Source: Euglena gracilis
Lineage: Eukaryota
Length of the DNA stretch: 64,000 nucleotides
Assembly: GCA_039621445.1 (NCBI GenBank)
Contig: CP154954.1
Span: 36,069,703 to 36,133,702 of the forward strand
Reading direction: 5' to 3'
Translations under genes and position numbers: made by a program
Notes under the pieces: model-generated
What the model was told of the DNA's origin: nothing
Database searches by the model: none
What the model saw: only the letters and a program-made list of their open reading frames with translations
Shown here: positions 5,265 through 58,212 of the stretch, in pieces
Layout of the letters: every line of letters begins with the position of its first letter
How positions within the stretch are numbered: position 1 is the stretch's first letter

Positions 5265-5583
5265 AGGGGCTGCGGCCTGAGGGTAGGGGACGAGAGGGGC
5301 GACTCTCTGCAGACACAACCGAAACAACCAAACAAAACAAGGGAACCAGGTCCAGAGCCGCAGCGGTCATACACACTGGGTAAGGGAGGTAAGAAAAAAC
5401 CCCAAAAGAAAAACATCCTGACAAAAAAACGACTCCACAGCCCAGAACCGAAAAGGGAACAGGTCAGCTGCAGGTTCGGCAGAGCAGCTTCACGGTGGGT
5501 GTCTGAAAACTACCACGTGAAGGAAGAAAAAATGACAGAAATTATCTCACACTTCGGGGTCCAGCCCCAGCTGGATGCCTTTG
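5265..5583 (+). CDS. pol: Element 1 pol, N-terminal part up to motif I of the Dam-like MTase (interrupted by element 2)
   Basis: Stop-free and in the gag frame after TGA 5262-5264: RGCGLRVGDE...WVSENYHVKEEKMTEIISHFGVQPQLDAF. It joins 12636 in frame once element 2 and one TSD copy are removed. Confidence 0.8.
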
Positions 5584-5774
5584 TGGACGTCTCAGAATAT
5601 TCTTTTGTTTTTATTGAAATCCTCGGATTCCCAATTTTTCTTGATATCCCAATTGTCCCCAAAGACGTAACACAATCAATGTTGAGACATAACCAGAGCC
5701 AGCAGTCTGCACAGGAGGAAAGGTTCGAATTAGGAATACAAAGTTCGGTTCAGGCGGTTAGTAAATAGTCCGCA
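5584..5774 (-). repeat. Element 2 3' LTR (191 bp)
   Basis: Direct repeat of 12440-12630; preceded on the minus strand by G-rich GGCATGGGGGGCGTG (imperfect PPT). Confidence 0.93.
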
Positions 5775-6060
5775 CACGCCCCCCATGCCGGAGGACGCGG
5801 CGCCACAGGCACAGGACGAAACGGCATCACACCACAAACAAAATGGCTTTACTATGGTTCAAGCACGAATGAATGGTGTTCAACACGAATTGTCCACAAA
5901 AAAGGTTCAGAACGACAAATGTCAACACAAAGGAAGGTAAAAGAGGTTACTTCCGACGTTCACCGTGGTCCCTTCACTTCGTGGTTGGCTTGCCATTCAA
6001 AAGTAACACAAACCTGGGCGAAACTCCTCGCATCAATGGCAGGTTTGTGACTGAAAGCCT

Positions 6061-9000
6061 TCAAACGTTAGACAACAATCCACCCATGGCGAGGCGGGTT
6101 GGTGTCTCCTGACCCGAAAAACCATCCAAAAGGCCCCCTGGGGGGCTTGACTTTCCTCCCGCGTGACTGAAAGCACGATCAAAACATTTGGGGGGAGGCC
6201 AGGCTGTCTCTTGAGATGCCAACCCCCATTCGCATTCTGAAACGTCGCAAAACATTCTGAGCGCCTGGCGTAGGATCGATTGTAAATTGTGATCCACACA
6301 ATAATTCTTGAAAACCTCATTCATTCTGCCTCCTGGTTGCACAAAGGAAGCCACAGGCTCCCATGTACTGCTGCTTGCCGGAAAATTCTCCCACCAAACC
6401 AAAAATTTCCATCCCCCTTGGTACTTGTGCTTCAAAATCTTGTAAACATTGTAAAAACCCAATTGTGCTTGTTCTTCTTCTGACATCTGAAGGCGGTGGT
6501 CCCCTCCCTGGTCTGGCATGGGGGTGTCACCCTCCACTGGGTCTCCCACAACCACATCACCGGTCAAAAGGTCTGGGTCTTCTTCCAAAAGGCTTTCTTC
6601 ATGCAAAGCAACCTCCCACCTTTTGCACAAACCCAAAGAGACATCAATGACCCCTCCCAAAGATGGACTGCTTGCAATTTGCACTGAATTGAACCTCGAT
6701 TTGAGAACCCGAAAAGGTCCTTGCCAGGGGGGGGAAAGCTTGGGCCATGATTTGTTTGGCCATCTTTTGTTGTGCACCAAAACATAGTCATCTTCTTCAA
6801 TTTTTGCTGGTACCCTCCCTTTGTTGGCACTCTCAAAATCCTTTTTCCTCAATTCTTTCAATCTCTGGGAAGCTCTTTCTTGAATTTCCATCTGGGTCAA
6901 AAGCCAAGAATGGGTTTCTGGATTTGTCACCGGTTCTGGGGGTAATTCCAACCTCCAAGCTGGTCTGCCCAAAAACATTTCATGGGGTGACAACATTGTT
7001 GTGGGGGAAATCTGCGAATTCATCAAAAATGTGCAATACGGGATCAGCTGCACCCAATTTTTGTCCTTGGAAGACAGACTCAATGCTCGCATATTCTGCA
7101 AGAACATTTTATTGACATTTTCAACCAAACCGTTTGATCGGGGGTTCCGGGGCAGAGAAAACGATAATTTCACGTCGAGAGCTTTCAGGGCTGTCTGGTA
7201 AAAACCACTGGGCTGTCTGAATCGCACGTCGTTGTCAGACCTCACAACAGACGGTTTTCCAAAAACAGAAATCCACCGGTCCAAAATAAGCCTCAAAACA
7301 CCTTCTCCGGTTACCGTTTTCTGTGTGGGGATGAATTGGCAAAAATGGGACAAATTGTCGACCAAAGTCAGCACATAGTCAAAACCATTGTAGGGGTCCA
7401 TTTGCACAAAATCCAAACACAAAACTTCATTGCTCACTGTTGGAATCGGTAAAGAACCCACCTTTCCACGGTCACTGGGGCGGTTTTGTTTTGAAAGGGT
7501 GCAAATTTCACATGTCATCACAATGGCCCTGCAAATTTCCAACATGTCTTTCTTGGAAACCTTGGACTGAAAATGGCTCAAAAAGAACAACAAAGTCCTT
7601 TCAGCACCAACATGGTTGCTTGCCTTGTGACATTCATCCAAACAAACCTTCAACAAATGAGATGGAACAACCAATTTTCCTTCACAATACATGGCCTTGG
7701 CAGATCTGAACCAAAACTCATTGTCAATGAAACAGGGTTTTGAAACCTCCACTTTTTCCCAAAAATCCTTCAGCTCTGAATTCAAATAATCCTTTTCTGA
7801 CACTTGCACTCTGTGGGACAAACTGAAAATCTTCTGCAAAAACAGGTCAAGCTGCACATCCATTTTCTGAAAAGCGTTCCTTGCTTCTTCCTCAAAATGA
7901 ATTTCAAATTTGTTCTCAAAATCAGCACGAGACAAAAAATCACACAATTCATTTTTGCAACCTGCCACATGAACGATATTCAGTTTGAACTGGTGCAAAA
8001 ACACATACATCCTTCTCAATCTTTTGTTGAGGGGGGGTTCACCCTTCAGGAAAGAGGTGGCTGCCTCATTGTCTGTCATCCACACAATTGGCAGATTTTG
8101 CAAAATCCTTGTTTGTGAAGCAATGGTCAGCACACCACTCAAAATTTCCTTTTCCCAGGTAGTGTATTTTTTTCTTGCCTCACTCCATTTCCAGTTGTAG
8201 TGGCCCAGGGGCACCAACCTCATTTCACTGGGGTAGTTGTTTTTCAGGGTCCCATCCACCTTCACACCACTTGTTCGAAAATTCTCAGGAATTTGTGTTT
8301 GTTGGAGGGTTTGCCACTGAAACAATGCTGAACCACCTCCCAAATCCGAACTGTCAGTCACCAAAACAATCTCTCCTGAACTCCTGGGGGTACCCAAAAC
8401 ATCAAGAGAAGACAATTTCCTTTTCAATGCATTCAAACAACTCTCCTCCTTTTCAGTCCACCTCCATTTCACATTCTTTTTCAGCAGATCTGTGAGCGGG
8501 GCTGAGTCAAAAGTAAAACCTTTCACGTGTCTGCGGTAGAAATTCATGGCTCCCAAAATTCGCCTCAAATCCCTTTGATTCTGAACTCGAAAACTCAGAA
8601 TTGGTTCAATGTTTCTTTTGTTTGCCTGCCACATTCCCCATCCCAACGAGAAACCCAAATAGTCAATGGACTGATTCAGAAAGGAACATTTGCTCAATTT
8701 TATTCTCACTTGGTTCTTTCTGCAAACTTCAAACCACTTTTCCAAAAGATACAAATGATCCTCCTCAGAGTTTGCACCAACCCCTGTGTCATCAAAAAAA
8801 GAAGCCAGGTGTCCATCCTTCAAAATCTCTCTCACCCTCAAATCCGTTTTGCATTGGGAGGTTAGAATTTCCATCAGCTCCTGAAAAATACCCGGTGCAT
8901 TACTTAGGCCAAACATCATCCTTTTGGGACGAAAACACCTCCCAGAAGGAATGCAAAATGCAGACAAATTTGCTGCTCTTTTTGTGATTGGGATTTGCCA

Positions 9001-9390
9001 ATACCCACTCCTCATGTCCAGGGTACTTTTCCAGCGACATTTGGCCAAACTTTCAATCAAAACCTCCATGCTTGGCAAATAACCTGCATGTGCCTTGCTT
9101 CTGGCATTCAATTTTCCATAATGGATGACCATCCTTCTGGTACTTGACCCTTTTTTGTCCACCAAAAATGTGGGGCTGCACACCTGGGGGATTTCACCAA
9201 CTGGGAATTGCTCAATCAACCCTGACTTTAGCAATTCTTCACACTGAAGGTCAATTTCTTTTTCATCCTCCTGGGGCATGGGCCAACACTTTTGCCTTAG
9301 GGGTTTACCTTCCCATTCAGGCTTTAGCTCAATGTCCATCAAAACTGGCAGTGGGGACTCGAGAAATTGTGGGCAATGGTCCAAAAACAT
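6061..9390 (-). CDS. pol: Element 2 pol: reverse transcriptase, RNase H, integrase, chromodomain
   Basis: RT: CSPTFLVDKK, LDMRSGYWQ, MMFGLSNAP, FFDD. RNase H: VTDSS...EKE...TDNEA...CDFLSR. IN: H..H..CEIC, LDF, RSDND, NGLVE, WQGPF. Chromodomain: YNVYKILKHK...FLVWWENF...STWEP. Confidence 0.93.
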   Translation of the reverse strand: MFLDHCPQFLESPLPVLMDIELKPEWEGKPLRQKCWPMPQEDEKEIDLQCEELLKSGLIEQFPVGEIPQVCSPTFLVDKKGSSTRRMVIHYGKLNARSKAHAGYLPSMEVLIESLAKCRWKSTLDMRSGYWQIPITKRAANLSAFCIPSGRCFRPKRMMFGLSNAPGIFQELMEILTSQCKTDLRVREILKDGHLASFFDDTGVGANSEEDHLYLLEKWFEVCRKNQVRIKLSKCSFLNQSIDYLGFSLGWGMWQANKRNIEPILSFRVQNQRDLRRILGAMNFYRRHVKGFTFDSAPLTDLLKKNVKWRWTEKEESCLNALKRKLSSLDVLGTPRSSGEIVLVTDSSDLGGGSALFQWQTLQQTQIPENFRTSGVKVDGTLKNNYPSEMRLVPLGHYNWKWSEARKKYTTWEKEILSGVLTIASQTRILQNLPIVWMTDNEAATSFLKGEPPLNKRLRRMYVFLHQFKLNIVHVAGCKNELCDFLSRADFENKFEIHFEEEARNAFQKMDVQLDLFLQKIFSLSHRVQVSEKDYLNSELKDFWEKVEVSKPCFIDNEFWFRSAKAMYCEGKLVVPSHLLKVCLDECHKASNHVGAERTLLFFLSHFQSKVSKKDMLEICRAIVMTCEICTLSKQNRPSDRGKVGSLPIPTVSNEVLCLDFVQMDPYNGFDYVLTLVDNLSHFCQFIPTQKTVTGEGVLRLILDRWISVFGKPSVVRSDNDVRFRQPSGFYQTALKALDVKLSFSLPRNPRSNGLVENVNKMFLQNMRALSLSSKDKNWVQLIPYCTFLMNSQISPTTMLSPHEMFLGRPAWRLELPPEPVTNPETHSWLLTQMEIQERASQRLKELRKKDFESANKGRVPAKIEEDDYVLVHNKRWPNKSWPKLSPPWQGPFRVLKSRFNSVQIASSPSLGGVIDVSLGLCKRWEVALHEESLLEEDPDLLTGDVVVGDPVEGDTPMPDQGGDHRLQMSEEEQAQLGFYNVYKILKHKYQGGWKFLVWWENFPASSSTWEPVASFVQPGGRMNEVFKNYCVDHNLQSILRQALRMFCDVSECEWGLASQETAWPPPKCFDRAFSHAGGKSSPPGGLLDGFSGQETPTRLAMGGLLSNV

Positions 9391-10975
9391 CAGAAAATTT
9401 CACCAAAAGCTCATACAACCTGGGGTGGTCTCTGAATTTCTCAACTTCTTTTTCAAATTCTCCACTCAGATTCTCAGTAAACAATTTGCTGCTTTTTTCA
9501 TCAGCCTTTTTCTGGGCCTCCAAAGTCCAAATCTTTTCATGCAAAACTTGGGAAATGCTTTTGAGTTCATCCATCTTGATTGTTGCCTTGGGAGTTTTCA
9601 CAGGTTTTGCAAACTGAACATCTTCCACAGGCTGGGCCAGCTGGAAAAACATCACCTCCACATCTTTTCTCACCTCCTGAAAAAGACTCAGCTCACTTTC
9701 AATGTCCTTGGTCAACTCAGCCAAAAAATTGATGTTTTCATGCTCATTCATTGGTTCAAACACCACCACATTGTCCAACCATTCTTTCACTTTTTCATCT
9801 GATTCCTTGGGGGGAACATTCTCCAAAGGAAAACTTGGACTTTCAAAAACTTGCTTGTCTGCAGGTGGGCTGGCAGGCTGGGTTGCCTGCTGCAGGGGGG
9901 GAACATCAGGAACATCTGGGATATCCACTTGAATTCCATCATCCACTGTGGGATACTTCCTGATCTCACCTCTCAGTTCATCCAAACTCCAATTCCTTGA
10001 AACTTTTCTGAGCCAACTGACAATTTTGGGGTCCAAAAGCTCAAAATCCACTTTGAATTGCACAGTGTCCACCACACTCACAAAAGTGTTCCACAGGGGG
10101 GAGGGCAGCACCTTTTTGCACCTGTCACCCACAAACAAGGGAACCCCACTTGAAATTTTCACCCTGGCCACAGTCACCCTTTCCAGCAGGGGGGACCAGT
10201 ACTGGTCCACCCAGTCTGGGTGCACCAGGACCATTTTTGTTTCTTCAATGCACAACTTTGTCACCACTTTGCTTAGTTGGCTGAAGGGGGGGTTTGCCCA
10301 CAGAAACTTGGAAGCACCAATGTCACACAACAACCTTTCCCATGAATACCTGTAGGCTGAATTCCCTTTTGTCATGTACAAAGACTGGGTGTGGTTCAGG
10401 TGGTTTGCAAAAAGATCAATGCAAATCTGACCCTCAGAAATCTTCAATTCATCCAAAGCTTTTGACTTCACTGGCTTCACCAAAGTGTAGCTTTCTGTCT
10501 TGAAAAGTCTGAAAATTCTTTTGATGGTGTGGTCCCCATCATGGCTCTGAAGTAAAAACTCCTCACCATCAATGATGATTCTGGGGGGTCTGGTCAGCAA
10601 CCCACCAAAAAATTCACTTTCAGTAAAGTCAGTCCCCAAAACTGCCTCGAAGGCATTTGTTTCAACCACAACCGCTTTAAGTCTTAGTGTTTTTCGCCCC
10701 AACTCCAAACTCACCTCACACACTCCTTCGGAAAAGATGTACTCACCGTTGCCGATCTGCAGGGGTACCGCAGCACTTCGCTGAATTTTATTCTCTGGAA
10801 CACATTTCTTAGAAACTGCAGTTATGGTGGCCCCAGTGTCCAAAATAGCTTGAATTTCCTTTCCATAAACCTTCACTGGCAAAAGATAAGTTTTACACAC
10901 CATCTGGAGCAACTGCAAAGCATCAGCTTTTCTCTTTTTGGGGTTCTCACCCGGGGGGGTAACCTGGGTTTGCAC
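9329..10975 (-). CDS. Element 2 aspartic protease plus Dam-like N6-adenine DNA methyltransferase
   Basis: ILDTGA and AVLGTDF (protease); TESYTL...IDLFANHLN...LWANPPFSQLSKVVTKL...LVHPDW...W (amino-MTase; NPPF at 10283-10294). Joined to its neighbours by single-base frameshifts. Confidence 0.85.
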   Translation of the reverse strand: MQTQVTPPGENPKKRKADALQLLQMVCKTYLLPVKVYGKEIQAILDTGATITAVSKKCVPENKIQRSAAVPLQIGNGEYIFSEGVCEVSLELGRKTLRLKAVVVETNAFEAVLGTDFTESEFFGGLLTRPPRIIIDGEEFLLQSHDGDHTIKRIFRLFKTESYTLVKPVKSKALDELKISEGQICIDLFANHLNHTQSLYMTKGNSAYRYSWERLLCDIGASKFLWANPPFSQLSKVVTKLCIEETKMVLVHPDWVDQYWSPLLERVTVARVKISSGVPLFVGDRCKKVLPSPLWNTFVSVVDTVQFKVDFELLDPKIVSWLRKVSRNWSLDELRGEIRKYPTVDDGIQVDIPDVPDVPPLQQATQPASPPADKQVFESPSFPLENVPPKESDEKVKEWLDNVVVFEPMNEHENINFLAELTKDIESELSLFQEVRKDVEVMFFQLAQPVEDVQFAKPVKTPKATIKMDELKSISQVLHEKIWTLEAQKKADEKSSKLFTENLSGEFEKEVEKFRDHPRLYELLVKFSDVFGPLPTISRVPTASFDGH

Positions 10976-11996
10976 TCCCTGGGGTTGAACCGAAGGGGTC
11001 CCTTTCCTGCCCCCTTCTGGGCTTGCTGCCTTCTTTTTTCAAACTTTTCTTTTGACCAACATCTGTCTTCATAATGCCCTTTTTGTGACAAAATCGACAG
11101 AAAATTGTGGCTCCAAATCGTGGGGCTGGGGTGTCATCAACTTTTCTTTCACCCTTGCCTTTGCCTTTTCCTTTGCCTTTTCCTTTTCCACCAGATTTTC
11201 CACCTTTTCCAGATTCTGGGACATTTTCACCAACTTTTTCAGATTGATCAGGGGGTCTTTCAATCAATGGTCTGAGATTTTCTTTTTTCAGCAAATTCCT
11301 CTCCAACCAATCTTCAGAACTTTTCTCCAAAATTGTTTTTCTCAAATCTGTGAATGTCTCAGAACGATGTTTGTAAAATCTGTCTGCCCTGATGTCTGCA
11401 TACATTCTGGGGTGTAATTTCCTCAGCAAAACCAAAAACTTTTCCTGTTCACTCATGGCCTGGGGGCTCAACCTGGCCATCAAATTGTCCAAGTCAATGA
11501 AAAGTTTTTTGATGTCTTGGGGTTCAGGGTTCTGGGAAAGTGCTGGCAATTTGTCAATGGCAGACCTCAAAGTCATGTCATTTTCCAGTGTTGGGAACAA
11601 ATTTGCAATTTCCAACAGCACTTTTTCAAAATCATCATTCTCATCCATCACTTTTTCAACCAGTTTTTTCACCTTGGGGGTGCAACATTCCAACAGCCAA
11701 TCCTTTTTCTGGACATTTCCAAATGCAACTGCACCAGTTAACCTCAACCATCTGCCAAAATCTTTCAAAAACTCTGGCCAATTTGTGCCATCAAACTCAG
11801 GCAATTTCACAGGGGGTAATCTTGAACTTTGGGTTGAACTTTGGCTGGGGTTGCTGGAATTTGGTTCCACAATTTGCTTCAGAAATGTTTCAACCTGGGT
11901 GATGGGGTTCACAGGGGTAAACACAGACTGACTGCTGCTGGCTGATTTGATTTCCAATTCTTGCAACCTTCTTTCCAAATCTTCAATGGAGGACAT
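10873..11996 (-). CDS. gag: Element 2 Gag with CCHC zinc knuckle (split by a frameshift)
   Basis: KLPEFDGTNWPEF capsid-like start; GKGKGKG tract; CRFCHKKG|HYEDRC forms a CX2CX4HX4C knuckle when one base is restored in the A/G run near 11080. Confidence 0.85.
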
Positions 11997-12423
11997 TTCT
12001 GCAGATCACTTTCAAAAAACTCAACCACTGGCTCTGAAAACTGGGAGAAACAGAAACACTGGCCAACCCAAAAAACAAACAAAAACTGAAGAAACCAGAA
12101 CAGAAAACCAACCACTGGGTTCAGGACCAGGTCAGCAAGATGATGAAGATCTTGCCTCAACCAGGATCTTGTTCTGGACAGCAAGGTGAACAGCACCACT
12201 TACAAACTTCCTCAACCAGGTAACCAATACAACAACTGTTGACAAACTCTCCACTGTGAACTTGTTCACCACAGCCTCAATGTCAACTTCCTGTTGAAGG
12301 TGTTGTTCTGTACCAGCAACTCGGTTAACCTTGCCTTCAGGAACACCAACTTCTGGAACTTCAATAACCAGTGAAACAATGTTGAATCTCCTCGAAGACG
12401 TCTTGGACGATTGGAACAACAAA

Positions 12424-12435
12424 CCTCTGCGACCA
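12424..12435 (-). promoter_or_regulatory. Element 2 primer-binding site TGGTCGCAGAGG
   Basis: Lies 4 nt after the 5' LTR on the minus strand; identical to the element 1 PBS. Confidence 0.75.
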
Positions 12436-12439
12436 ACTT

Positions 12440-12630
12440 TGGACGTCTCAGAATATTCTTTTGTTTTTATTGAAATCCTCGGATTCCCAATTTTTCTTGA
12501 TATCCCAATTGTCCCCAAAGACGTAACACAATCAATGTTGAGACATAACCAGAGCCAGCAGTCTGCACAGGAGGAAAGGTTCGAATTAGGAATACAAAGT
12601 TCGGTTCAGGCGGTTAGTAAATAGTCCGCA
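12440..12630 (-). repeat. Element 2 5' LTR (191 bp)
   Basis: Direct repeat of 5584-5774. Confidence 0.93.
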
Positions 12631-12635
12631 CTTTG

Positions 12636-20004: not shown

Positions 20005-20484
20005 TGTGAGTCAGGGGTGCTGAGTGCCCAAAACAACATAACCTAACCCAACCCAACCTGATGACTCTGCAGTTAGGATTAGGAAAATCTTATTAGGAAT
20101 TATTAGCAGCTGACCCCATTTGTCTGCACAGGGCTCTGTCTTGTGTTTGTCTGTTTCAAGTTCAAGAATTGAATTATATTGGTGGCAATTATCATTCTTA
20201 CCTGGACATTTCGTGGTTCATTACATTGGTGCTGGATTTGGAATTGCTGAATTGCTTGTATTGTGCTATTGGTCTTGTGGATTTTTTTATCAAAAAGGAA
20301 AGGTGTGAGCCAACCAACCCACCTGTTTTCATCAAAAAAACCCACCAAAAACAAAGAAAATGCAATTTTTGAAACAGGCCGCGAGGGGAATTGAAAACAC
20401 CCTGGGCAGGGTTAAAGATCCTACGCAACGGGGTGCCGGCCCCGAGGAACTGGAAACCCCAGGGCGGGCACCACGAATACAACA
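20005..20484 (+). repeat. Element 1 3' LTR (480 bp)
   Basis: Direct repeat of 458-937. Confidence 0.95.
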
Positions 20485-40134: not shown

Positions 40135-40168
40135 AAGTCATGTGGGACAAAAAAATTTTCGGATGCAT

Positions 40169-51700: not shown

Positions 51701-52659
51701 GGTACAAGTACTGGTATTGACTGACCATGAGAGTCTTCAACACTGGTATACCGAGGATCTGAACAAAGCCATGTCATCCGTAGGCCGAAGATGCCGATGG
51801 CCTAAATTTTTGAGCCAGTTCAACCTAGTGGTTGTATATACCCCTGGCCATACACAAAAAGTAGCAGACCCGCTCAGTCGAGCACCCCGGCATTACCCCG
51901 GTAACCCGGATGAATGTGATTCCACCTTTCATGGAAGCCAAGAGGCTGATGAATTCGCACGTCGCTATGACGCAGCCGACGATATATTGGAGTCTTTTCC
52001 CGTTTCATCGATTTTTCGTTCATTGCCAGTCTCTCCTATACGGGGGAGAAGGCGGCGAGGCCGCACACCTGGTCCCCGTCGCATTACGCGCCTTCCCCCC
52101 TCTTCTTTCGCGAATTAGATTATTCCCATGACCCTGTATATAGCACGATAGTGCACAGACTGCGCAATGGCGAGGTTGTACGCAATTATTCACTTTCCCC
52201 TTTACGGTTGGTTTACCGCGATGATGCGGGATATAAATATTGTATACCCCGTGACTTGGTTGACGAAGTACTTTTGTGTTAACACAACCAAGGTCACCCT
52301 GGGGCCCCCAAACTTCTTTCTTTGGTGGGTCGCGTGTATTGTACAACCCTGAAAGAAAAAGATTTGTTTTCGCGCTGCTTGCAAATTTTGCAACGGTGCC
52401 AAATTTGTCAAGCGGTGAAACCGCGCAGAGGTACCCCCCCTGGTACGCTTGATTTTCTCCCCGTGCCACCTGACATTTTTACGTCCCTCTGCATGGATTT
52501 TCTGTAATTAGAACCTTGCAATCGATCAGACGGCAAAGTTTACGATTATGTTTTTTTGTCGTCTGTGGGATGAGTGGTTACATAGTAGCCATTCCATGCC
52601 AAAAGGCAGGGTCGACCGCGCAAATTTTAGCGCAGACGTTTATGGAGAAGTGCATATGC
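45707..52659 (+). pseudogene. Decayed inverted copy of element 3 gag-pol (5'-truncated)
   Basis: Reverse-complement homolog of ~53752-60771 with many stops and frameshifts; remnants of the knuckle (CFLCNQPGQ), PR (LVDAG), MTase (IDTFSS...WMHPA), RT (YIDD), RH and IN. Confidence 0.92.
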
Positions 52660-52921
52660 TGTGTACCAGGCAGCATTGGACATGGCACTGTGCATAGCAG
52701 CAGACTGCAGAATGTACAATGCCATGTCAGATAGTACTATTCCAAGTTCTTCAATACAAGTTGCAGAATTAGGAATAGCCTATCCTATCTCGGATCTGCC
52801 TTCTCTTTGCACAGGTGGTATTATTGTTTTGTTTTGTGTTTCACAAGCCCAAAAGGGCAAATCAAGGATTTGAAGACTTGAACTCCGATAGGAGATCACA
52901 ACTGTCCAAAATACCAACTGG
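52660..52921 (+). repeat. First 262 bp of the element 4 LTR (inverted copy of 53490-53751)
   Basis: Starts TGTGTACCAGGCAGC at the same integrase junction (...MEKCIC|) as in the other arm. Confidence 0.85.
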
Positions 52922-53751
52922 AGCTGGAAACCACTGGGGTGGGGAGATGCTCAATAGAGCTGAAATTTTGACGTGGGGATGCTCTATAGAGCTTGGGGTA
53001 TACCTGGACTGGAGCATATACGCCTCTTGCAACAATTCATGACAAGTGCTTATCAATTCTTGTAATCAATGAGTGTGTGGTTGCTTGAGCTCTGCATATT
53101 TTTATTTGCAGAAACAAACACAAGAAACCCCAAAAAGTAAGCGAAGGAACAAACTTAGAAGGATGTGGCAGCGTATACTGCCCAGAGCCTCCTGAAGCTC
53201 GTACCTGTGCTTAGAAGTTGGCTTCAAACAGCTCGTGGACGCTTTGTAGCCTATAGGCTCAGCACCACTCACTGTTTGAATTCACCTGTTTAGAAGGGGG
53301 GGGGAGAAGGGGCGTAGGAAAGAAACCTAATCTGCTACCAAGTTTACGTCCCCTGACTCTATTCCCACTGCCTGTCGGCCTACTTACACCCTCCCGTGGG
53401 AACAGAACCAGGAGAGTAACAAAAAAGAAAGTCTTTCACTTAACTATTAGTTTTTATTGCCTTTGGGCTTACGCAGAGCACAAGGCAAACCAGTTGGTAT
53501 TTTGGACAGTTGTGATCTCCTATCGGAGTTCAAGTCTTCAAATCCTTGATTTGCCCTTTTGGGCTTGTGAAACACAAAACAAAACAATAATACCACCTGT
53601 GCAAAGAGAAGGCAGATCCGAGATAGGATAGGCTATTCCTAATTCTGCAACTTGTATTGAAGAACTTGGAATAGTACTATCTGACATGGCATTGTACATT
53701 CTGCAGTCTGCTGCTATGCACAGTGCCATGTCCAAAGCTGCCTGGTACACA
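52922..53751 (-). mobile_element. Element 4 remnant: 5' LTR (53343-53751), PBS TGGTAGCAG (53332-53340), leader and gag start of an element-3 sibling
   Basis: Shares the LTR start TGTGTACCAGGCAGC, the LTR-end/PBS block and leader motifs (gcagcgtatactg, gcctataggc) with 62460-63084; gag start MQSS...LIDY and SSIEHPH resemble MQST..IDY and SSIEQPH. Confidence 0.8.
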
Positions 53752-55566
53752 GCATATGCACTTCTCCATAAACGTCTGCGCTAAAATTTGCGCGATCGAC
53801 CCTGCCTTTTGGCATGGAATGGCTACTATGAAACCACTCATCCTACAGACGACAAAAAAAAACATAATCGTAAACTTTGCCGTCTGATCCTTTGCAATGT
53901 TCTAATTACAGAAAATCCATGCAGAGGGACGTAAAAATGTCAGGTGGCACGGGGAGAAAATCAAGCGTACCAGGGGGGGTACCTCTGCGCGGTTTCACCG
54001 CTTGATAAATTTGGCACCGTTGCAAAATTTGCAAGCAGCGCGAAACAAATCTTTTTCTTTCAGGGTTGTACAATACCCGCGACCCACCAAAGAAAGAAGT
54101 TTGGGGGCCCCAGGGTGACCTTGGTTGTGATAACACAAAAGTACTTCATCAACCAAGTCACGGGGTATACAATATTTATATCCCGCATCATCGCGGTAAA
54201 CCAACCGTAAAGGGGAAAGGGAATAATTATGTACAACCTCGCCATTGCGCAGTCTGTGCACTATCGTGCTATATACAGGGTCATGGGAATAATCCCATTC
54301 GCGAAAGAAGAGGGGGGAAGGAGATTCAGATCGCGTAATGCGACGGGGACCAGGTGTGCGGCCTCGCCGCCTTCTCCCCCGTATAGGAGAGACTGGCAAC
54401 GAACGAAAAATCGATGAAACGGGAAAAGAATCCAACATATCGTCGGCTGCGTCATATCGACGTGCAAATTCATCAGCCTCTTGGCTTCCATGAAAGGTGG
54501 CATCACCTTCATCCGGGTTACCGGGGTAATGCCAGGGTGCTCGACTGAGCGGGTCTGCTACTTTTTGTGTATGGCCAGGGGTATATACAACCACTAGGTT
54601 GAACTGGCTCAAAAATTCATGCCATCGGCATCTTCGGCCTACGGATGACATGGCTTTGTTCAGATCCTCGGTATACCAGTGTTGAAGACTCTCATGGTCA
54701 GTCAACACCAGTATTTGCACCAAGGAGCTGGCGACCCAGCTACGGAATTTTTGTAAAATAAGTACGATTGCGTACGTTTCCTTCTCACGGATACTCCATT
54801 TAACTTGGCCTTTGCCATCTTCACCTTGTAGCTTTCTACTGAAGAATGCTACAGGGCGTAATTCGTTAGCCGCGTTATGCTGGCTTAGAACTCCGCCTAC
54901 AGCATAATCGCTGCTATCGACTTCTAGCACATAAGGCTTGTAGGGATCCGCGATGTCGAGTACGACATTTTCAAGCATTAGCTTTTTAATGCTCTCTAGA
55001 GCTTCACGCATATCTGCGTCCCATTTGACTTTGGTATTTTCGGGTGCGCGATTTTTGAGTTGCCTCGATAGAGGTACCGCGATTTTCGCGAAATCTTTCA
55101 TGTAAATCGCGTAATATTGGGCTAATCCCAAAAATCCTTTCAAATGGGTGATGGTCTTGATGACCTCAGGTGTCCATTTCTTAATGGCCTCTAGTTTGCT
55201 AGGCGCCGCTCGGCGTTGGCCATTATTGAGAATGTGACCGCAAAACTTTATCGTTTCGCGAAATAAGTGCATTTTGGCACCTTTGACAAAGAGTCTGTGT
55301 TTGAGAAATGCGGCTAATACCGCGCGAACATCACGATAGTGAATGTCGAGAATATTCTCGTGTGTATTCGCTGAAGGAGGGGGGGTACCAACCAAAACAT
55401 CATCAATGTATACCAGCGCAAACGGTAAATCCCGTAAGACCCATTGGATCATGCGCTGAAACATTGCTGGTCCATTCTTAACACCCATTGGTAAAACCGT
55501 CCATTGGTAAACACCTTTGGATGTTACAAAAGCCGTATAGGCTTGCGAATCGGGATCCAGATGCAT
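53752..55566 (-). pseudogene. pol: Element 3 RT C-terminal half, RNase H and partial integrase
   Basis: LPMGVKNGP, YIDD, LEVDSSDYAVGGVLSQ, EKETYA, TDHES, VADPLSR, HNQGHPG, SLCMDF; frameshifts and stops near 54040-53860. Confidence 0.9.
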
Positions 55567-55596
55567 TTGGTGGAAACCATCCTCCAGGTCGAAAAT

Positions 55597-58212
55597 TTAC
55601 CACAAGCGGTTATCCGCTTGTTTTGTGATAAGGTACTCTATTAGAGGTAACGGGAATGGGTCATCCTTAGTCTGCGAATTTAAGTACCGATAATCCAGTA
55701 CTAGCCTCCACTTTTTCTGACCTGATGGGTCTGGGGGCTTAGGAACCACAAAGGCTTGGGAGGTCCATTCACTCTTGGAAGGGATGATCCACTTCCGCTC
55801 TATGAGCTTTTCAATCATTTCATTGAGAGCTATCTCTCGTTCTCCGGAACAACGGAAAAATTTCCGATGCATTGGCTTTGCGCCTTCCTTAAGCTCTATC
55901 TTACAAACTCCAAAAGGTCCGCGAATAGCGGGATCTATATCGCAAGCGTAAACAGGATTTTCCAAAACACCAGAAAATTCGCGACTGATGCGCGTACAGA
56001 ATTCTGCTGATTTTGGATGCTGTCCTGCACTTTCAATGACAGCGGAAACCTGTTTATGGGTCATATCGACCATAGGGGATTCCGAACGGGGATGCCTATC
56101 GGCATTATGCACAAAAGCCGTATCGGCTCCCACATAGTCGGTATGATCCAACACACTTACATTCAGGGGTGGAGATTGAGAAACATGAAAAGCATCAAAG
56201 AAACAAACACGGAAAATGATTTCTTGAAAAGGTGGTAATACCACTCCACGGAAATCCTCGAATAGAGGAACGTCGTTTGGTAGGTCCCACCAATAAAATG
56301 TGACATAAGTCAAATTTTGAAACCATTCCGCTTCGGGATTCACAGGAACAAGTAATGCGCCTCGCGCTTGATCCTGGAAAATTTTATCTACAACAAGCGG
56401 GATAAGTTTCAGGGGGGGATGCATCCATAGGATAGTGTCTCCCCAAAACTTATCAAAAGCATTAGAATGTTGCGACCAATGTCGCGGTAATCGCGAATGC
56501 GCGTTGGAGGAGAATGCATCAATTTCCAAGGTCAAATCAAAAGAATCCGCCATATCGGCGATTTTTGAAAACCAATGTTTCAAAATTCGATATTGACCAA
56601 ATTGAAAAGCATTCCAGGTATCCTTGGTGTACTTGGACATTTGCTCAACATCCTGAAGGGGGGGAACACGCTGTAACACAGAACAACGAAATTGTGAATC
56701 ATCCACATACATGTCCATAGGACTCAATCCAGGTGGGTCATGGGTGGGTTGGGCATATACCCAATCATCGGTGATGCGCGATAGCGCGGAATGCGCGATA
56801 TGCGCGGGATTCGCACTATGTGCGGCAAGCGCGATATGCGCGGAATTCGCACCATGTGCGGAAAGCGCGATATGCGCGGGGGTGTTGGAGAGCGCCATAG
56901 GCGCATAGGGAGCGCTATGCGCAAATCCGAAGAGGGAGGCTATGTCTTTGCACTGTAGTGCTCGATTCACTTTCGCGAATTGCGAAAAACTGCCAAGTGG
57001 ATTTGTGATCTGTGCATAATTATCAAGTGTGCTGATGGGTGTATCACCCATGGTATCAAGGCTGTGTACCTTTTGGTTGTCTATTAAATCCGTACCAGGT
57101 GTATAGGTATCACTACCAGGTGTAGGGGGGGGAAAATTCCCGGTTGCGGGATCCAATCGGATTAGTTTGGAAGTTTCAACAAGACATCCACAATCAAAAT
57201 CATGGTAAGCGGAGATTCTCCGACAGTGAGCACATTGGTAGGAGGGTTGGTGCATGTGGTGCGCGTCTGTGTGGGTGTCAGTGCATAAGTTGGTGTCGGT
57301 TGGGGTAGCTGCTGGGGGGTGTACAGGGGTGTCTGAAATCGACACACCTGGTGGAAAACGTAAAAGTTGTGCAGCTGGGCGGCTACTCGACACCGTTATA
57401 ACTTCAGGCCTTTGGGCTTTCGCCTGGGAACCCAGCGAAACGTGCGGGGTTAAGCTACTGGCTTTCCCTACCACATGGGAAACGAGCGGTAAAAGTGCGG
57501 TGGGTAGGGGGGCAGCTTTCTCTTTACCCCTAGGGTAGGAAACGGTGTTTTCGGTTGTGGAAAACGTTGTGGAAATGCGGGGGGACATCCTGGGGGATGT
57601 CACGGGGAACAAGTTCGGGGGTGTGGTGTGTGTGCGGGGGGTAGTGCGCAAACCGTGCGAAGGACAATCCACCACCAATCGGTGTTGCCGGAGGAACAGA
57701 AAACCGAGTATGACATCTGACCCGGCGATATTCGCCTCGAATGCCCAAGTACCCAGAAAATTTTGGAATTGTGGGGGGTGTGTGTGGTGCTTCGGGATAA
57801 TGGGGAGGACTATGTCCAAAATGCATCCCAAGTCACCACCGCACATGGGGCTGTTGTCAGCGGTCATAATTTTGATGGGATTCTTGGCATGAACCAAAAG
57901 GGGGGTGGGTATAAGTCCTTTGCAGAAAAGAAGGGGGATTCGACACCCTGTGTCGACTAAAATTTTGGCTTGTGCACAGAAATTTTGAGTTTTGATTTTC
58001 GCTTGGACCAAACTTTCCATGGGGGGTACGCAAAGCGAAGGGTCGGGTGTAAAATTGTTGTTGCGCCAACTGTTCCATGACCCTTGGCTTACTTTGCTCA
58101 ACATTCCAAGCAAAAATTTGGCGCGGGGAGTGGGGGACCCGAAAATTTTCCGGGTACCGACCAAAAAGACCGATGGGCAGGGGGGGCAGGGGTGATCAGT
58201 TCCTACCTCCAT
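55597..58212 (-). CDS. pol: Element 3 pol: protease, long low-complexity linker, Dam-like MTase (HPP), RT N-terminus
   Basis: ILVDTGC, VILGF; IDAFSSNAH...NAFDKFWGDTILWMHPPLKLIPLVVDKI...LLVP..W; WTSQAFVVPK, WRLVLDYRYLN. Confidence 0.85.
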   Translation of the reverse strand: MEVGTDHPCPPCPSVFLVGTRKIFGSPTPRAKFLLGMLSKVSQGSWNSWRNNNFTPDPSLCVPPMESLVQAKIKTQNFCAQAKILVDTGCRIPLLFCKGLIPTPLLVHAKNPIKIMTADNSPMCGGDLGCILDIVLPIIPKHHTHPPQFQNFLGTWAFEANIAGSDVILGFLFLRQHRLVVDCPSHGLRTTPRTHTTPPNLFPVTSPRMSPRISTTFSTTENTVSYPRGKEKAAPLPTALLPLVSHVVGKASSLTPHVSLGSQAKAQRPEVITVSSSRPAAQLLRFPPGVSISDTPVHPPAATPTDTNLCTDTHTDAHHMHQPSYQCAHCRRISAYHDFDCGCLVETSKLIRLDPATGNFPPPTPGSDTYTPGTDLIDNQKVHSLDTMGDTPISTLDNYAQITNPLGSFSQFAKVNRALQCKDIASLFGFAHSAPYAPMALSNTPAHIALSAHGANSAHIALAAHSANPAHIAHSALSRITDDWVYAQPTHDPPGLSPMDMYVDDSQFRCSVLQRVPPLQDVEQMSKYTKDTWNAFQFGQYRILKHWFSKIADMADSFDLTLEIDAFSSNAHSRLPRHWSQHSNAFDKFWGDTILWMHPPLKLIPLVVDKIFQDQARGALLVPVNPEAEWFQNLTYVTFYWWDLPNDVPLFEDFRGVVLPPFQEIIFRVCFFDAFHVSQSPPLNVSVLDHTDYVGADTAFVHNADRHPRSESPMVDMTHKQVSAVIESAGQHPKSAEFCTRISREFSGVLENPVYACDIDPAIRGPFGVCKIELKEGAKPMHRKFFRCSGEREIALNEMIEKLIERKWIIPSKSEWTSQAFVVPKPPDPSGQKKWRLVLDYRYLNSQTKDDPFPLPLIEYLITKQADNRLW

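What the first reader, a model, noticed from the sequence alone, without database searches (positions are those of the whole stretch)
5499..56600. All three autonomous Gypsy families here carry a Dam-like MTase, at two different polyprotein positions
Seen: the pattern Y-x(n)-D(A/L)F(A/S)-x(n)-W-x-(N/H)PP-x(n)-P-x(n)-W occurs in element 1 (before PR), element 2 (~10070-10500, between PR and RT, NPPF) and element 3 (~56190-56600 and ~49884-50260, between PR and RT, HPPL). The elements differ in LTRs, Gag and base composition. Inference: lineage-wide retention or repeated capture of an adenine MTase by LTR elements in this host, suggesting selection linked to host 6mA biology. The HPP version may be an altered or inactive form.
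Basis: partly seen in the sequence, partly recalled or inferred. Interest (0 to 1): 0.75.

Follow-up and report, generated by a model that had tools for sequence, protein, structure and literature searches.

The report
Adenine-methylase domains in three Gypsy retrotransposons
Three different Gypsy-type retrotransposon families in this window each carry a small phage-like adenine-methyltransferase domain, a real feature of a kind that a 2026 preprint has already described.

Summary
A Dam-like (PF05869-type) domain of about 145 aa occurs at five places and nowhere else in a six-frame scan: element 1 (5472-5583 and 12636-12961, split by the nested element 2), element 2 (10067-10525, minus strand), and both copies of element 3 (56203-56619 minus; 49875-50240 plus). 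The segments align pairwise (BLASTP E 6e-7 to 4e-15) and hit Pfam Dam, PHROG phrog_111 and, for two of three, NCBIfam phage_N6A_met.

The domain order is gag-DAM-DNMT-PR-RT-RH-IN-chromo in element 1 and gag-PR-DAM-RT-RH-IN in elements 2 and 3.

- Element 1 also carries a C5 cytosine methyltransferase and a chromodomain.
- Its DAM domain is cut in two by element 2.
- None of the copies is intact, so 'autonomous' is not shown.

DAM and RT trees sort the elements into the same three groups. This favours retention with domain shuffling over three separate captures.

The HPPL form is a trait of the element 3 lineage. It sits in a sub-clade whose catalytic motif decays while the rest of the domain stays conserved, so it is probably inactive.

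DAM-carrying LTR elements, including DAM+DNMT+chromodomain 'EpiLTRs', are described in bioRxiv 10.64898/2026.05.21.726589. The host was not identified and enzyme activity is unproven.

The parts
458..937 (+). Element 1 5' LTR (TG...CA). The PBS TGGTCGCAGAGG follows at 938-949.
   Evidence: Self-BLAST 457-940 vs 20004-20487, 99.6% over 484 nt; sequence read. CGGG at 454-457 and 20485-20488 fits a target duplication in the 213-bp satellite.
762..5264 (+). Element 1 Gag-like ORF (1500 aa, coiled-coil-like, internal 78-bp and 105-bp repeats). It ends at an in-frame TGA; the pol frame continues at 5265.
   Evidence: Only weak coiled-coil type Pfam matches.
5472..5583 (+). Element 1 DAM domain, N-terminal part (...ENYHV...QLDAF), cut off by the element 2 insertion.
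   Evidence: DAM HMM positions 2-38, E 2.2e-9 and positions 2-42. tblastn of P0005 residues 1-29 onto 5499-5585, 90% identity.
5584..12630 (-). Element 2, a nested Gypsy/chromovirus-like element: LTRs 5584-5774 and 12440-12630 (191 bp, identical), TSD CTTTG at 5579-5583 and 12631-12635, PBS TGGTCGCAGAGG.
10625..10879 (-). Element 2 aspartic protease.
   Evidence: Pfam gag-asp_proteas E 5e-11, residues 54-138 of P0002.
10067..10525 (-). Element 2 DAM domain (IDLFAN ... LWANPPFS), between PR and RT.
   Evidence: Pfam Dam E 3.9e-5, 23.8 bits; phrog_111 E 3.5e-6; TIGR01712 E 1.9e-4; DAM HMM E 2.7e-36.
6061..9399 (-). Element 2 RT-RNase H-integrase-chromodomain ORF. It is frameshifted relative to the PR-DAM ORF near 9400.
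   Evidence: Pfam RVT_1 2.2e-21, RT_RNaseH_2 8e-11, rve 1.9e-7, Chromo 4e-5 (23.9 bits, under the cut-off of 25.1); junction read.
12636..12961 (+). Element 1 DAM domain, C-terminal part (ATEKNKRF ... LWMNPPFS ...).
   Evidence: Pfam Dam E 2.1e-5, 24.7 bits; DAM HMM positions 37-147; 96.9% identity to P0005.
13190..13819 (+). Element 1 C5 cytosine DNA methyltransferase domain (DLFCGT, PCTEFS, ENP motifs).
   Evidence: Pfam DNA_methylase 23.9 bits, over the cut-off of 22. AF2 pLDDT above 95 across the domain. Foldseek hits to DNMT1, DNMT3A, M.HaeIII, M.HhaI and DIM2 at E about 1e-7, with 207 hits at E<=0.001.
14048..14224 (+). Element 1 aspartic protease (LIDTGA), downstream of DAM and DNMT.
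   Evidence: Pfam Peptidase_A3 E 3e-4 and gag-asp_proteas E 4.8e-4.
14410..18139 (+). Element 1 RT, RNase H, integrase (H2C2 and core) and chromodomain (18035-18139), spread over several frames with an in-frame TAA at 16807.
   Evidence: Pfam RVT_1 7.6e-27, RT_RNaseH 3e-21, rve 5.8e-6, Integrase_H2C2 1.9e-5; Chromo 1.3e-10.
20005..20484 (+). Element 1 3' LTR.
53490..63084 (-). Element 3 copy B: Gag-like coiled coil, CCHC knuckle, PR-like LVDTG (about 57841-58011), DAM, RT, RNase H, integrase zinc finger, then truncated. No LTR pair.
   Evidence: Pfam. tblastn of P0025 residues 1-1208 onto 57588-53764. Homology with copy A ends at 53490.
56203..56619 (-). Element 3 copy B DAM domain with HPPL in place of NPPF.
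   Evidence: Pfam Dam E 3.5e-5, 24.0 bits; phrog_111 E 4.6e-6; no NCBIfam hit. AF2 pLDDT 85.9, pTM 0.79. Top Foldseek hit is PCIF1/CAPAM.
45703..52921 (+). Element 3 copy A: the 5'- and 3'-truncated inverted duplicate of copy B (94% identity).
49875..50240 (+). Element 3 copy A DAM domain with HPAL.
   Evidence: Pfam Dam E 8.2e-3; DAM HMM E 1.6e-25, and this copy was not in the HMM's alignment; sequence.

Best explanation
The window holds three families of Ty3/Gypsy-type LTR retrotransposons inserted into two satellite arrays. Two of the three have a chromodomain; the C-terminus of the third is missing. Each encodes, inside its polyprotein, a domain of about 145 aa that is a distant homologue of the small phage N6-adenine DNA methyltransferases (Pfam PF05869, NCBIfam TIGR01712). 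These are therefore 'DAM-LTR' elements. Element 1 also carries a C5 cytosine methyltransferase and a chromodomain, which makes it an 'EpiLTR' in the terms of the 2026 preprint.

Shown here:
- homology of the DAM segments to each other and to the phage-type family
- the domain orders
- the nesting of element 2 inside element 1
- the decay of every copy
- the same three-way grouping by DAM and by RT

Inferred, about 0.6: the DAM domain was inherited along with RT in this Gypsy radiation. PR-DAM-RT is the older order, because it occurs in both deep DAM clades. The DAM-DNMT-PR order of element 1 is a later rearrangement tied to the gain of the DNMT.

Inferred, about 0.35, following the preprint's model: the NPPF forms are made as part of Gag-Pol and methylate adenines on the element's own reverse-transcribed DNA. 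New insertions then enter chromatin pre-marked with 6mA.

Inferred, about 0.6: the HPPL form of element 3 no longer methylates adenine but is kept for another role.
For: Homology of the DAM segments:
- Pairwise BLASTP E 6e-7 to 4e-15.
- Pfam Dam is the best family for each segment.
- The intact sister copy P0005 scores 31.9 bits against a gathering score of 28.1.
- Relatives above the gathering score: 8 of 25 and 4 of 19 (P0110 is in both sets).
- phrog_111 hits all 3 window segments. TIGR01712 hits 2 of 3.

Fold:
- The AF2 model of the E3 domain has pLDDT 85.9.
- Every top Foldseek hit is a class I SAM methyltransferase, led by the N6-adenosine enzymes PCIF1/CAPAM (E 2.7e-3, probability 1.00, TM 0.53) and KsgA/DIMT1.

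LTR-element nature:
- LTR pairs, target duplications, PBS, and the RT-RH-IN(-chromo) order for E1 and E2.
- E3's relative P0025 carries DAM(HPPL)-RT-RH-Integrase_H2C2.

Element 1 DNMT.

Co-inheritance of DAM and RT:
- DAM tree of 80 rows: the E2 clade (19 rows, SH-aLRT 100) stands against a clade of 61 rows (100). The latter splits into an E3 group (13 rows, 92) and an E1 group (48 rows, 85).
- RT-RH identity is 39-40% for E1-E3, 23% for E1-E2 and 22-24% for E2-E3.
- RT tree of 11 rows: E1 groups with the DNMT-bearing P0048, P0068 and P0055 (92). E3 groups with P0025, P0038, P0060 and P0081 (91). E2 sits on a long branch.

Domain order: PR-DAM is seen in both deep clades (P0172, P0144, P0039 and P0032; weak PR matches at E 3e-3 to 7e-3 in P0150 and P0131).

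HPPL as a lineage trait:
- P0025 is 74% identical and also has HPPL.
- Between E3B and P0025 the DAM domain is 76% identical (110 of 144). The spacer before it is 33% identical and RT is 87%.
- In the 13-row sub-clade only 4 rows keep NPPF. The others read NAPF, NPPI (twice), NPPV, NPHY, HPMF, HPPL (twice) and HPAL.

Precedent: METTL14's EPPL lacks the aromatic residue needed to stack on adenine and is inactive (PMC5023411, passage read).

Preprint (Results, Discussion and Methods read): DAM-LTRs carry more 6mA than other LTR elements in three species.
Against: - No window segment reaches Pfam's gathering score for Dam (23.8-24.7 against 28.1). None comes near the TIGR01712 equivalog cut-off (33 bits at most, against 97). 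The E3 segment has no NCBIfam hit at all.
- Foldseek gave 0 matches at E<=0.001 for the DAM model, and TM is only about 0.5.
- A profile search of PDB sequences found no methyltransferase. That profile had 765 positions including flanks.
- Activity is unproven. The preprint reports that DIRS, DAM-LTR and adintovirus DAMs expressed in dam-deficient E. coli did not raise 6mA.
- Both trees are quick IQ-TREE searches on 149 and 217 columns, rooted at the midpoint, and contain no DIRS or prokaryotic DAMs. They cannot exclude old transfers between lineages. Inside the E3 group, P0060 and P0081 are placed differently by the two trees.
- The preprint itself favours repeated transfers and singles out Euglena as complex.
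- The 150 relatives were chosen by score to a profile built from these elements, so they are a biased sample.
- The constraint argument for HPPL rests on two sequences.
Confidence: 0.75

Rival explanations
1. Each of the three families captured its DAM domain separately, from DIRS-like elements or from one another by recombination. The two polyprotein positions are the scars of separate captures.
For: - The window shows two positions: before PR and after PR.
- Among relatives the methylase modules are shuffled in other ways too: DNMT before DAM (P0027, P0045, P0110, P0161), DAM far upstream of DNMT (P0033), and DNMT between RNase H and integrase with no DAM (P0019).
- DAM upstream of PR turns up in both deep DAM clades, each time together with a DNMT (P0110 in the E2 clade, the E1 type in the other).
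- The preprint infers at least four DIRS-to-LTR transfers and a more complex picture in Euglena.
Against: - DAM and RT sort E1, E2 and E3 and their relatives into the same three groups.
- The PR-DAM-RT order is shared by the two deepest DAM clades.
- The Pfam scans of 44 selected long relatives (25 and 19; P0110 is in both) listed no tyrosine-recombinase (DIRS-type) family.
Confidence: 0.2
2. The domain is a methyltransferase relic in all three families. It is kept as a structural, nucleic-acid-binding or protein-binding module of the polyprotein and makes no 6mA at all.
For: - Heterologous expression in E. coli gave no 6mA (preprint).
- The domain is small and has no glycine-rich SAM loop that can be read in the alignment; it has D-A/L-F-A/S instead.
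- The catalytic motif decays in the E3 sub-clade while the rest of the domain stays conserved. This shows that the fold can be retained without the motif.
Against: - The Asn of the motif is conserved in at least 90% of the 41 aligned relatives and the first Pro is invariant.
- LW-x-NPP-F/Y recurs in most of the 91 DAM-bearing proteins listed, which argues for selection on the catalytic loop outside the E3 sub-clade.
- Phage enzymes of this family are themselves only about 165 positions long, judging by the profile lengths of 165 and 169.
- The preprint reports more 6mA on DAM-LTRs.
Confidence: 0.2
3. The domain methylates RNA rather than DNA, for example the element's genomic RNA or its cap-adjacent adenosine.
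For: - The nearest solved structures are the cap-specific adenosine methyltransferase PCIF1/CAPAM and the rRNA adenine dimethyltransferases KsgA/DIMT1.
- There is a weak PCIF1_WW Pfam match on relative P0150 at the DAM region (E 0.0071).
- The absence of DNA 6mA in E. coli is compatible with this.
Against: - Sequence profiles point to phage DNA methyltransferases.
- The structural matches are weak (TM about 0.5, none at E<=0.001).
- No PF05869-type structure appeared among the solved chains, so the ranking may only reflect what has been solved.
Confidence: 0.08
4. The shared pattern is a chance resemblance of short motifs and the segments are unrelated spacers.
For: Each window segment is under Pfam's gathering score.
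Against: - Pairwise E-values reach 4e-15.
- There were five hits and no others among 1650 six-frame pieces.
- Three independent libraries give the same answer.
- A confident common fold is predicted.
- Dozens of relatives share the same conserved columns.
Confidence: 0.01

Closest known systems
DAM-LTR retrotransposons and 'EpiLTRs' (Fernandez-Moreno et al., bioRxiv 10.64898/2026.05.21.726589; Results, Discussion and Methods read, supplements closed)
   Same: - A PF05869-type DAM domain sits inside Ty3/Gypsy-like LTR elements, often with chromodomains.
- A subset combines DAM, a C5 DNMT and a chromodomain.
- The DAM domain has an NPP core and a five-stranded sheet.
- Euglena gracilis is described there as having two strongly supported DAM clades and complex shuffling. 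This resembles the two deep clades.
   Different: - I could not show that the window comes from any species in that study.
- The main text does not state a DAM-DNMT-PR order upstream of the protease. Architectures are in figures I cannot see.
- The string 'HPP' does not occur in its main text, so the degenerate-motif sub-clade seen may not be described there.
- In Cymbomonas the DNMT is at the 3' end of pol, unlike element 1.
Methyltransferase domain of DIRS-group retrotransposons (recalled: Goodwin and Poulter; cited as known in the preprint and in PMC9940879, passage read)
   Same: Same Pfam family assignment. It is also a domain of a retroelement polyprotein.
   Different: DIRS elements use a tyrosine recombinase, lack a protease and an rve integrase, and place the domain after RNase H (recalled). 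Here the elements have direct LTRs, target duplications, a protease and an rve/H2C2 integrase, and the domain lies upstream of RT. No DIRS sequence was compared directly.
Small phage N6-adenine DNA methyltransferases (Pfam PF05869 Dam; NCBIfam TIGR01712 phage_N6A_met; PHROG phrog_111)
   Same: Best or only profile match for all the segments. Similar size. NPPF/Y catalytic motif in E1 and E2.
   Different: - Only profile positions of about 20-120 out of 165-169 align.
- Scores are far below the equivalog cut-off (33 bits at most, against 97).
- The domain is embedded in a eukaryotic retroelement polyprotein.
- E3 has HPPL.
METTL14, the inactive partner of METTL3 (PMC5023411, passage read)
   Same: An adenine-methyltransferase fold in which the catalytic tetrad has lost its aromatic residue (EPPL there, HPPL here) while the fold is conserved.
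   Different: This is an analogy only. METTL14 belongs to a different family (MT-A70), acts on RNA, and works as a heterodimer. No partner is known for the E3 domain.
Retrotransposons with captured C5 DNMTs (de Mendoza et al. 2018, PMC5890265; search listing and abstract seen, plus the preprint's summary)
   Same: Element 1 has a C5 DNMT inside a retrotransposon polyprotein.
   Different: According to the preprint, those earlier cases are DNMT3-type or LINE-associated and lack a DAM. Element 1's DNMT is short (about 210 aa). Its best profile and feature matches are phage-type methylases: phrog_757 at 1e-13, and Atlas leads at 0.87, which are leads only.

Membership tests
Pfam PF05869 Dam / phage N6-adenine methyltransferase | Profile score at or above the curated cut-off, window segments themselves | tested here: not met
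   Scores are 24.7 (E1 C-part), 23.8 (E2) and 24.0 (E3B) bits against 28.1. Dam is nevertheless the best family in each case, at E 2e-5 to 4e-5. TIGR01712 gives 21 bits or less against 97, and no hit for E3B.
Pfam PF05869 Dam / phage N6-adenine methyltransferase | Profile score at or above the curated cut-off, close relatives in the same clades | tested here: met
   P0005 (96% identical to E1, uninterrupted) scores 31.9 bits. Eight of 25 relatives and 4 of 19 (P0110 is in both sets) exceed 28.1, up to 42.2 bits.
Pfam PF05869 Dam / phage N6-adenine methyltransferase | Catalytic motif (D/N)PP(Y/F/W) (definition recalled; the NPP core is stated in the preprint) | tested here: met
   E1 reads LWMNPPFS and E2 reads LWANPPFS. 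Not met in E3: HPPL in copy B and HPAL in copy A.
Pfam PF05869 Dam / phage N6-adenine methyltransferase | SAM-dependent class I methyltransferase fold | tested here: inconclusive
   AF2 pLDDT is 85.9. The top Foldseek hits are all class I methyltransferases (PCIF1, KsgA, DIMT1, DOT1L), but none has E<=0.001 and TM is about 0.5.
Pfam PF05869 Dam / phage N6-adenine methyltransferase | Methylates adenine N6 in DNA | not testable with these tools
   The preprint's E. coli assay of related domains was negative.
DAM-LTR retrotransposon (2026 preprint) | DAM domain in the same polyprotein as RT in an element with LTRs and an rve-type integrase, and no tyrosine recombinase | tested here: met
   E1 and E2 have LTR pairs, target duplications, a PBS, RT, RNase H and rve. 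For E3 this is met only in part: RT, RNase H and an integrase zinc finger are present, but there is no LTR pair and no integrase core in the window.
DAM-LTR retrotransposon (2026 preprint) | DAM belongs to the single eukaryotic TE-associated DAM clade | not tested
   My tree holds no DIRS or prokaryotic sequences. The preprint's supplements were closed.
EpiLTR (DAM + C5 DNMT + chromodomain in one LTR element) | All three domains in one element | tested here: met
   Element 1 has a DAM, a DNMT at 23.9 bits against a cut-off of 22 with a DNMT fold at E 8.5e-8, and a Chromo domain at E 1.3e-10. In the six-frame scan, E2 and E3 gave no DNMT hit.
DIRS-group retrotransposon | Tyrosine recombinase instead of integrase; inverted or split terminal repeats; methyltransferase domain after RNase H (recalled) | tested here: not met
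   rve and Integrase_H2C2 were found, and no recombinase family was listed. E1 and E2 have direct LTRs. The DAM lies upstream of RT in all three.
Ty3/Gypsy chromovirus | PR-RT-RH-IN order with a C-terminal chromodomain | tested here: met
   E1 has Chromo at 41.5 bits. E2 has Chromo at 23.9 bits, just under the cut-off of 25.1. The C-terminus of E3 is absent from the window.

The most novel reading that the evidence does not exclude
The element 3 lineage has turned its adenine methyltransferase into a conserved pseudo-enzyme. The catalytic NPPF decays stepwise (NPPI/V, NPHY, HPMF, HPPL) while the fold stays under constraint. The domain now works without catalysis. It might read or bind 6mA-marked or single-stranded DNA, or it might pair with an active methylase supplied by the host or by co-resident NPPF families, much as METTL14 serves METTL3. 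If so, DAM-LTRs would contain both 'writer' and 'non-writer' lineages in one genome. That would give a natural experiment on what the domain is for.
Probability: 0.25. Interest if true: 0.6.

Novelty: new member of a known kind. Interest (0 to 1): 0.4.

Why it matters
Retrotransposons that carry their own DNA-modifying enzymes can set the epigenetic state of their new copies instead of merely suffering the host's. This window shows the idea in compact form. Three families with an adenine-methylase domain, one of them with a cytosine methylase and a chromodomain as well, are piled into satellite arrays and into each other.

The general phenomenon is already in a 2026 preprint, so this window is supporting material rather than a discovery. 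What it adds:
- a clear case of two domain orders side by side
- evidence that the domain travels with RT rather than being recaptured each time
- a lineage whose catalytic motif has decayed while the domain is kept

The last point gives a direct comparison for testing whether catalysis matters.

Tried and rejected
- **Host and accessions:** The listing of cluster members could not be made because the database was switched off. The source names and organisms of the relatives stayed unknown.
- **Other routes to the host:** Rfam (0 matches) and ARAGORN (0 tRNAs) gave no marker. The Atlas search returned only phage-type DNMT leads at 0.87 and no host information. The host therefore remains unidentified. 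'Euglena gracilis' is a guess based on the preprint's description.
- **PDB sequence search:** the A2 profile found no methyltransferase. The one hit was Cse4 at E 0.74, which is noise. The profile had 765 positions including PR and DNMT flanks.
- **Representative search:** it used the same broad profile, so its counts (11149 at E<=0.001) mix PR, DAM and DNMT relatives and are not a count of DAM proteins. Only the best 150 were seen.
- **The search for related loci:** a scan of bacterial genomes with A3 was not possible because no stretch was conserved enough.
- **Element 3 as a DIRS element:** considered because of the inverted arrangement. Rejected because P0025 and both copies carry a Gypsy-type integrase zinc finger, and the 'inverted repeat' is a 7.2-kb duplication of the element body.
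- **DAM tree:** the careful search did not finish in 300 s, so the quick tree is reported.
- **Closed or unseen sources:** The preprint's supplementary tables and figures, which may list these very families and their architectures, could not be seen.

Full report
**Layout of the window.** Two satellites frame everything. One has a 213-bp unit (1 to about 456 and about 20500-34379). The other has a 216-bp unit (34381-45706 and 63085-64000). A self-comparison with the satellites set aside gives three repeat pairs:
- 457-940 with 20004-20487: 484 nt, 99.6% identical
- 5584-5775 with 12440-12631: 192 nt, identical
- 45703-52921 with 60774-53490: inverted, 94% identical

**Boundaries of elements 1 and 2.** I read the junctions.
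- Element 1 has LTRs at 458-937 and 20005-20484. CGGG on both sides fits a duplication of the satellite target.
- Element 2 has TG...CA LTRs at 5584-5774 and 12440-12630 and a CTTTG target duplication. It codes on the minus strand and lies inside element 1.
- Both elements have the same primer-binding sequence, TGGTCGCAGAGG, next to the 5' LTR.

**Domain content.** Pfam scans of 22 long stop-to-stop translations, with follow-ups, give the following orders.
- Element 1:
  - A 1500-aa Gag-like ORF (762-5264) ends in an in-frame TGA.
  - Then come DAM, a C5 DNA_methylase domain (23.9 bits, cut-off 22) and a protease (LIDTG).
  - RT, RNase H, integrase and a chromodomain (E 1.3e-10) follow.
- Element 2: Gag with a CCHC knuckle, protease (E 5e-11), DAM, RT, RNase H, integrase, and a chromodomain at 23.9 bits, just under its cut-off.
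- Element 3, copy B:
  - A coiled-coil Gag-like ORF and a CCHC knuckle (E 5e-9) come first.
  - A protease-like stretch with LVDTG and ILG motifs follows, with only a weak profile match (E 0.045).
  - Then come DAM, RT and RNase H.

**Is the DAM-like pattern real?** Yes.
- The Pfam family 'Dam' (PF05869) appears in 4 of the 22 translations and for no other part of the window.
- On the trimmed segments it is the best family, at 24.7, 23.8 and 24.0 bits (E 2e-5 to 4e-5). These are below the gathering score of 28.1.
- The segments align with each other by BLASTP: E1 C-part with E2, 2e-13; E2 with E3B, 6e-7.
- A database protein 96% identical to element 1 (P0005) carries the domain uninterrupted. 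It aligns with E3B at 4e-15 and with E2 at 1e-12, and it scores 31.9 bits for Dam, above the gathering score.
- Two other libraries agree. PHROG phrog_111 'DNA methyltransferase' hits all three segments (E 3.5e-6 to 1.6e-5). NCBIfam TIGR01712 'phage N-6-adenine-methyltransferase' hits E2 (1.9e-4) and the E1 C-part (6e-3) but not E3B. All these scores are far below the equivalog cut-off of 97 bits.
- A DAM-only HMM run over 1650 six-frame pieces hits exactly the five expected places. Two of them were not in the alignment behind the HMM.

**Element 1's domain is split.**
- The HMM matches 5472-5583 with its positions 2-38 and 12636-12961 with positions 38-147.
- Element 2 plus its 5-bp duplication adds 7052 bases, which explains the change of frame.
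- P0005 reads LDAFATEKNKRF across the point where the window has ...LDAF, then element 2, then ATEKNKRF.
- So one DAM-carrying element has landed in the DAM domain of another.

**Structure.**
- With a 41-sequence alignment (A3), AlphaFold2 gives the E3B domain a confident model: pLDDT 85.9, pTM 0.79. It shows an N-terminal helix and alternating strands and helices.
- Foldseek against the PDB finds no match at E<=0.001.
- Its best matches are all class I SAM methyltransferases. First come the cap-specific adenosine N6-methyltransferase PCIF1/CAPAM (E 2.7e-3, probability 1.00, TM 0.53), then KsgA/DIMT1 and DOT1L.
- A profile search of PDB sequences found nothing relevant.
- The fold evidence is therefore consistent with an adenine methyltransferase but weak on its own.
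- For element 1's second domain the evidence is strong. pLDDT is above 95 over the domain. DNMT1, DNMT3A/B, M.HaeIII, M.HhaI and DIM2 match at E about 1e-7, with 207 matches at E<=0.001.
- The motifs DLFCGT, PCTEFS and ENP can be read directly.

**Relatives.**
- The word-indexed protein search found 17 relatives of the element 1 DAM-DNMT region. Four of them have DAM and DNMT (and, where long enough, PR) in the same order at 43-48% identity.
- It found three relatives of the element 2 domain at 48-64% identity.
- It found one relative of the element 3 domain, P0025, at 74% identity.
- P0025 carries DAM-RT-RNase H-Integrase_H2C2. The element 3 family is therefore an integrase-bearing Gypsy-type element, not a DIRS element.
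- The exhaustive profile search returned 150 proteins. Its profile also covered PR and DNMT, so its totals are not DAM counts.
- Of the 172 proteins then stored, 91 have a DAM domain by a local HMM.
- Pfam scans of 25 and 19 of the longer ones (P0110 is in both sets) show several things:
  - Dam is found in 14 and 16 of them, and above the gathering score in 8 and 4.
  - DAM is often upstream of RT and integrase; P0107 is an example.
  - No tyrosine-recombinase family is listed.

**Retention or capture?**
- A DAM tree of 80 domains (149 columns, quick IQ-TREE search, SH-aLRT support, midpoint root; the careful search did not finish) has two deep clades.
- One clade of 19 rows (support 100) holds element 2. 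The other, of 61 rows (100), splits into a 13-row group with element 3 (92) and a 48-row group with element 1 (85).
- RT-RNase H identity is 39-40% between E1 and E3, against 22-24% for either with E2.
- An RT tree of 11 rows puts E1 with three DNMT-bearing relatives (92) and E3 with P0025, P0038, P0060 and P0081 (91). E2 sits on a long branch and P0107 is unresolved.
- The two markers thus give the same three groups and the same nearest pair. Within the E3 group the positions of P0060 and P0081 differ, with weak support.
- The PR-DAM order occurs in both deep clades.
- DAM upstream of PR occurs only together with a DNMT, and it does so in both deep clades (the E1 type, and P0110).
- My reading is that the domain was inherited with RT and that PR-DAM-RT is the older order. 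The element 1 order would then have arisen when the DNMT module was added.
- The trees lack DIRS and prokaryotic sequences and rest on a biased sample. Older transfers are therefore not excluded.

**The HPPL variant.**
- Asn in the motif is conserved in at least 90% of the 41 aligned relatives.
- LW-x-NPP-F/Y recurs in most of the 91 DAM-bearing proteins.
- The exceptions cluster in element 3's sub-clade. Of its 13 rows, four have NPPF. The rest read NAPF, NPPI (two), NPPV, NPHY, HPMF, HPPL (E3B and P0025) and HPAL (E3A).
- The other conserved columns persist: D-A-F, A-F...W, LW, VV-x-KI, the P-x-W region and WWDLP.
- Between E3B and P0025 the DAM domain is 76% identical (110 of 144). The spacer before it is 33% identical, RT 87% and RNase H 94%.
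- HPPL is therefore a family trait in a domain that is still conserved, not decay of one copy. Copy A's HPAL is a later change in a dead copy.
- In METTL14 the equivalent EPPL lacks the aromatic residue that stacks on adenine, and the protein is inactive (PMC5023411, passage read). By analogy, loss of both Asn and Phe makes catalysis unlikely here.

**State of the copies.** None of them is shown to be autonomous.
- Element 1 is interrupted by element 2. It also has a frameshift between PR and RT near 14440-14470, where relative P0007 reads through in a single frame, and an in-frame TAA at 16807. This is despite LTRs that differ at one position within the LTR proper.
- Element 2 has identical LTRs. 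Its CCHC knuckle is split over two frames near 11100-11160, and the DAM-to-RT junction near 9400 is frameshifted. These may be real defects or assembly indels.
- The two element 3 copies share the same end point (52921 and 53490), about 270 nt past the integrase zinc finger, and then run into unrelated sequence. They are arms of one inverted duplication rather than two insertions. Copy B has one in-frame stop across DAM-RT-RNase H, and its Gag region is spread over several frames.

**What is known.**
- A preprint of May 2026 (bioRxiv 10.64898/2026.05.21.726589; I read Results, Discussion and Methods; figures and supplements were not available) reports PF05869-type DAM domains in non-DIRS LTR retrotransposons.
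- It finds them across several eukaryotic lineages and infers repeated transfers from DIRS elements.
- It describes 'EpiLTRs', which combine DAM, DNMT and chromodomain, in Cymbomonas and Euglena gracilis.
- It finds more 6mA on DAM-LTRs in three species.
- It reports no 6mA gain when such domains are expressed in dam-deficient E. coli.
- My literature searches found no other paper on adenine methylases in Gypsy-type elements. Two candidate papers mention only DIRS or unrelated methyltransferases.
- Element 1 fits the EpiLTR definition, and the two deep DAM clades resemble what the preprint says of Euglena.
- I could not identify the host. I therefore file the finding as new members of a known kind. 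If the window is from E. gracilis it is simply already known.
- The string 'HPP' does not occur in the preprint's main text. The decaying-motif sub-clade may be the one new point.

**Mechanism.**
- Shown: the domains, their order and their conservation.
- Inferred: the NPPF domains are released from or act within Gag-Pol in the particle and methylate the element's own cDNA, giving new insertions a 6mA mark. In element 1 the DNMT could add 5mC as well, and the chromodomains steer integration into heterochromatin.
- The last point fits the setting here, with elements 1 and 3 lying in satellite arrays. It is not tested.
- I put the self-marking model at about 0.35, a non-catalytic role for all three families at about 0.2, and an RNA substrate at under 0.1.

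Noticed in passing
13190-13819 (+): Element 1 carries a short C5 cytosine DNA methyltransferase between its DAM domain and its protease. Its best profile matches are phage-type methylases (phrog_757 at 1e-13). Relatives place the same module in other positions; in P0019, for example, it sits between RNase H and integrase.
   Followed up: yes
45703-52921 (+) and 53490-60774 (-), spacer 52922-53489: The two element 3 copies are arms of a 7.2-kb inverted duplication with their 3' ends facing each other. They share a truncation point just after the integrase zinc finger. The last 411 nt before the spacer are 97.8% identical, against 94% overall.
   Followed up: partly
34381-45706 and 63085-64000: The 216-bp satellite changes orientation near 42500 and again near 44970. 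Two 11-nt arrays (CCCCTTACCCA, 39886-40133 and 40485-40720) flank a 118-bp doublet inside it. Together with the inverted element 3 copies, this points to rearrangement by inversion in this array.
   Followed up: no
938-949 (+) and 12425-12436 (-): Elements 1 and 2 have RT domains only 23% identical, yet they share the same 12-nt primer-binding sequence, TGGTCGCAGAGG. From recall, this resembles the 3' end of an initiator-Met tRNA. No tRNA gene is in the window to check it against.
   Followed up: no
whole elements: Dinucleotide content differs sharply between the families. CpG observed/expected is 0.30 in element 2, 0.54-0.62 in element 1 and 0.90-0.95 in element 3. ApT is 0.65-0.72 in elements 1 and 2 and 1.07-1.10 in element 3. 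The two NPPF families are the CpG- and ApT-poor ones. With three families, this may be no more than base composition.
   Followed up: partly
5262-5264 (+): Gag and pol of element 1 are in the same frame, separated by a single TGA. This could be a read-through signal or a mutation. In relative P0008, 263 residues continue upstream of the DAM domain in one ORF without a stop.
   Followed up: no
762-5264 (+): Element 1's Gag-like ORF is unusually long (1500 aa). It contains tandem repeats of 78 bp (x3, 1038-1270) and 105 bp (x2.3, 3156-3396), and no recognised Gag or zinc-knuckle family was found.
   Followed up: no
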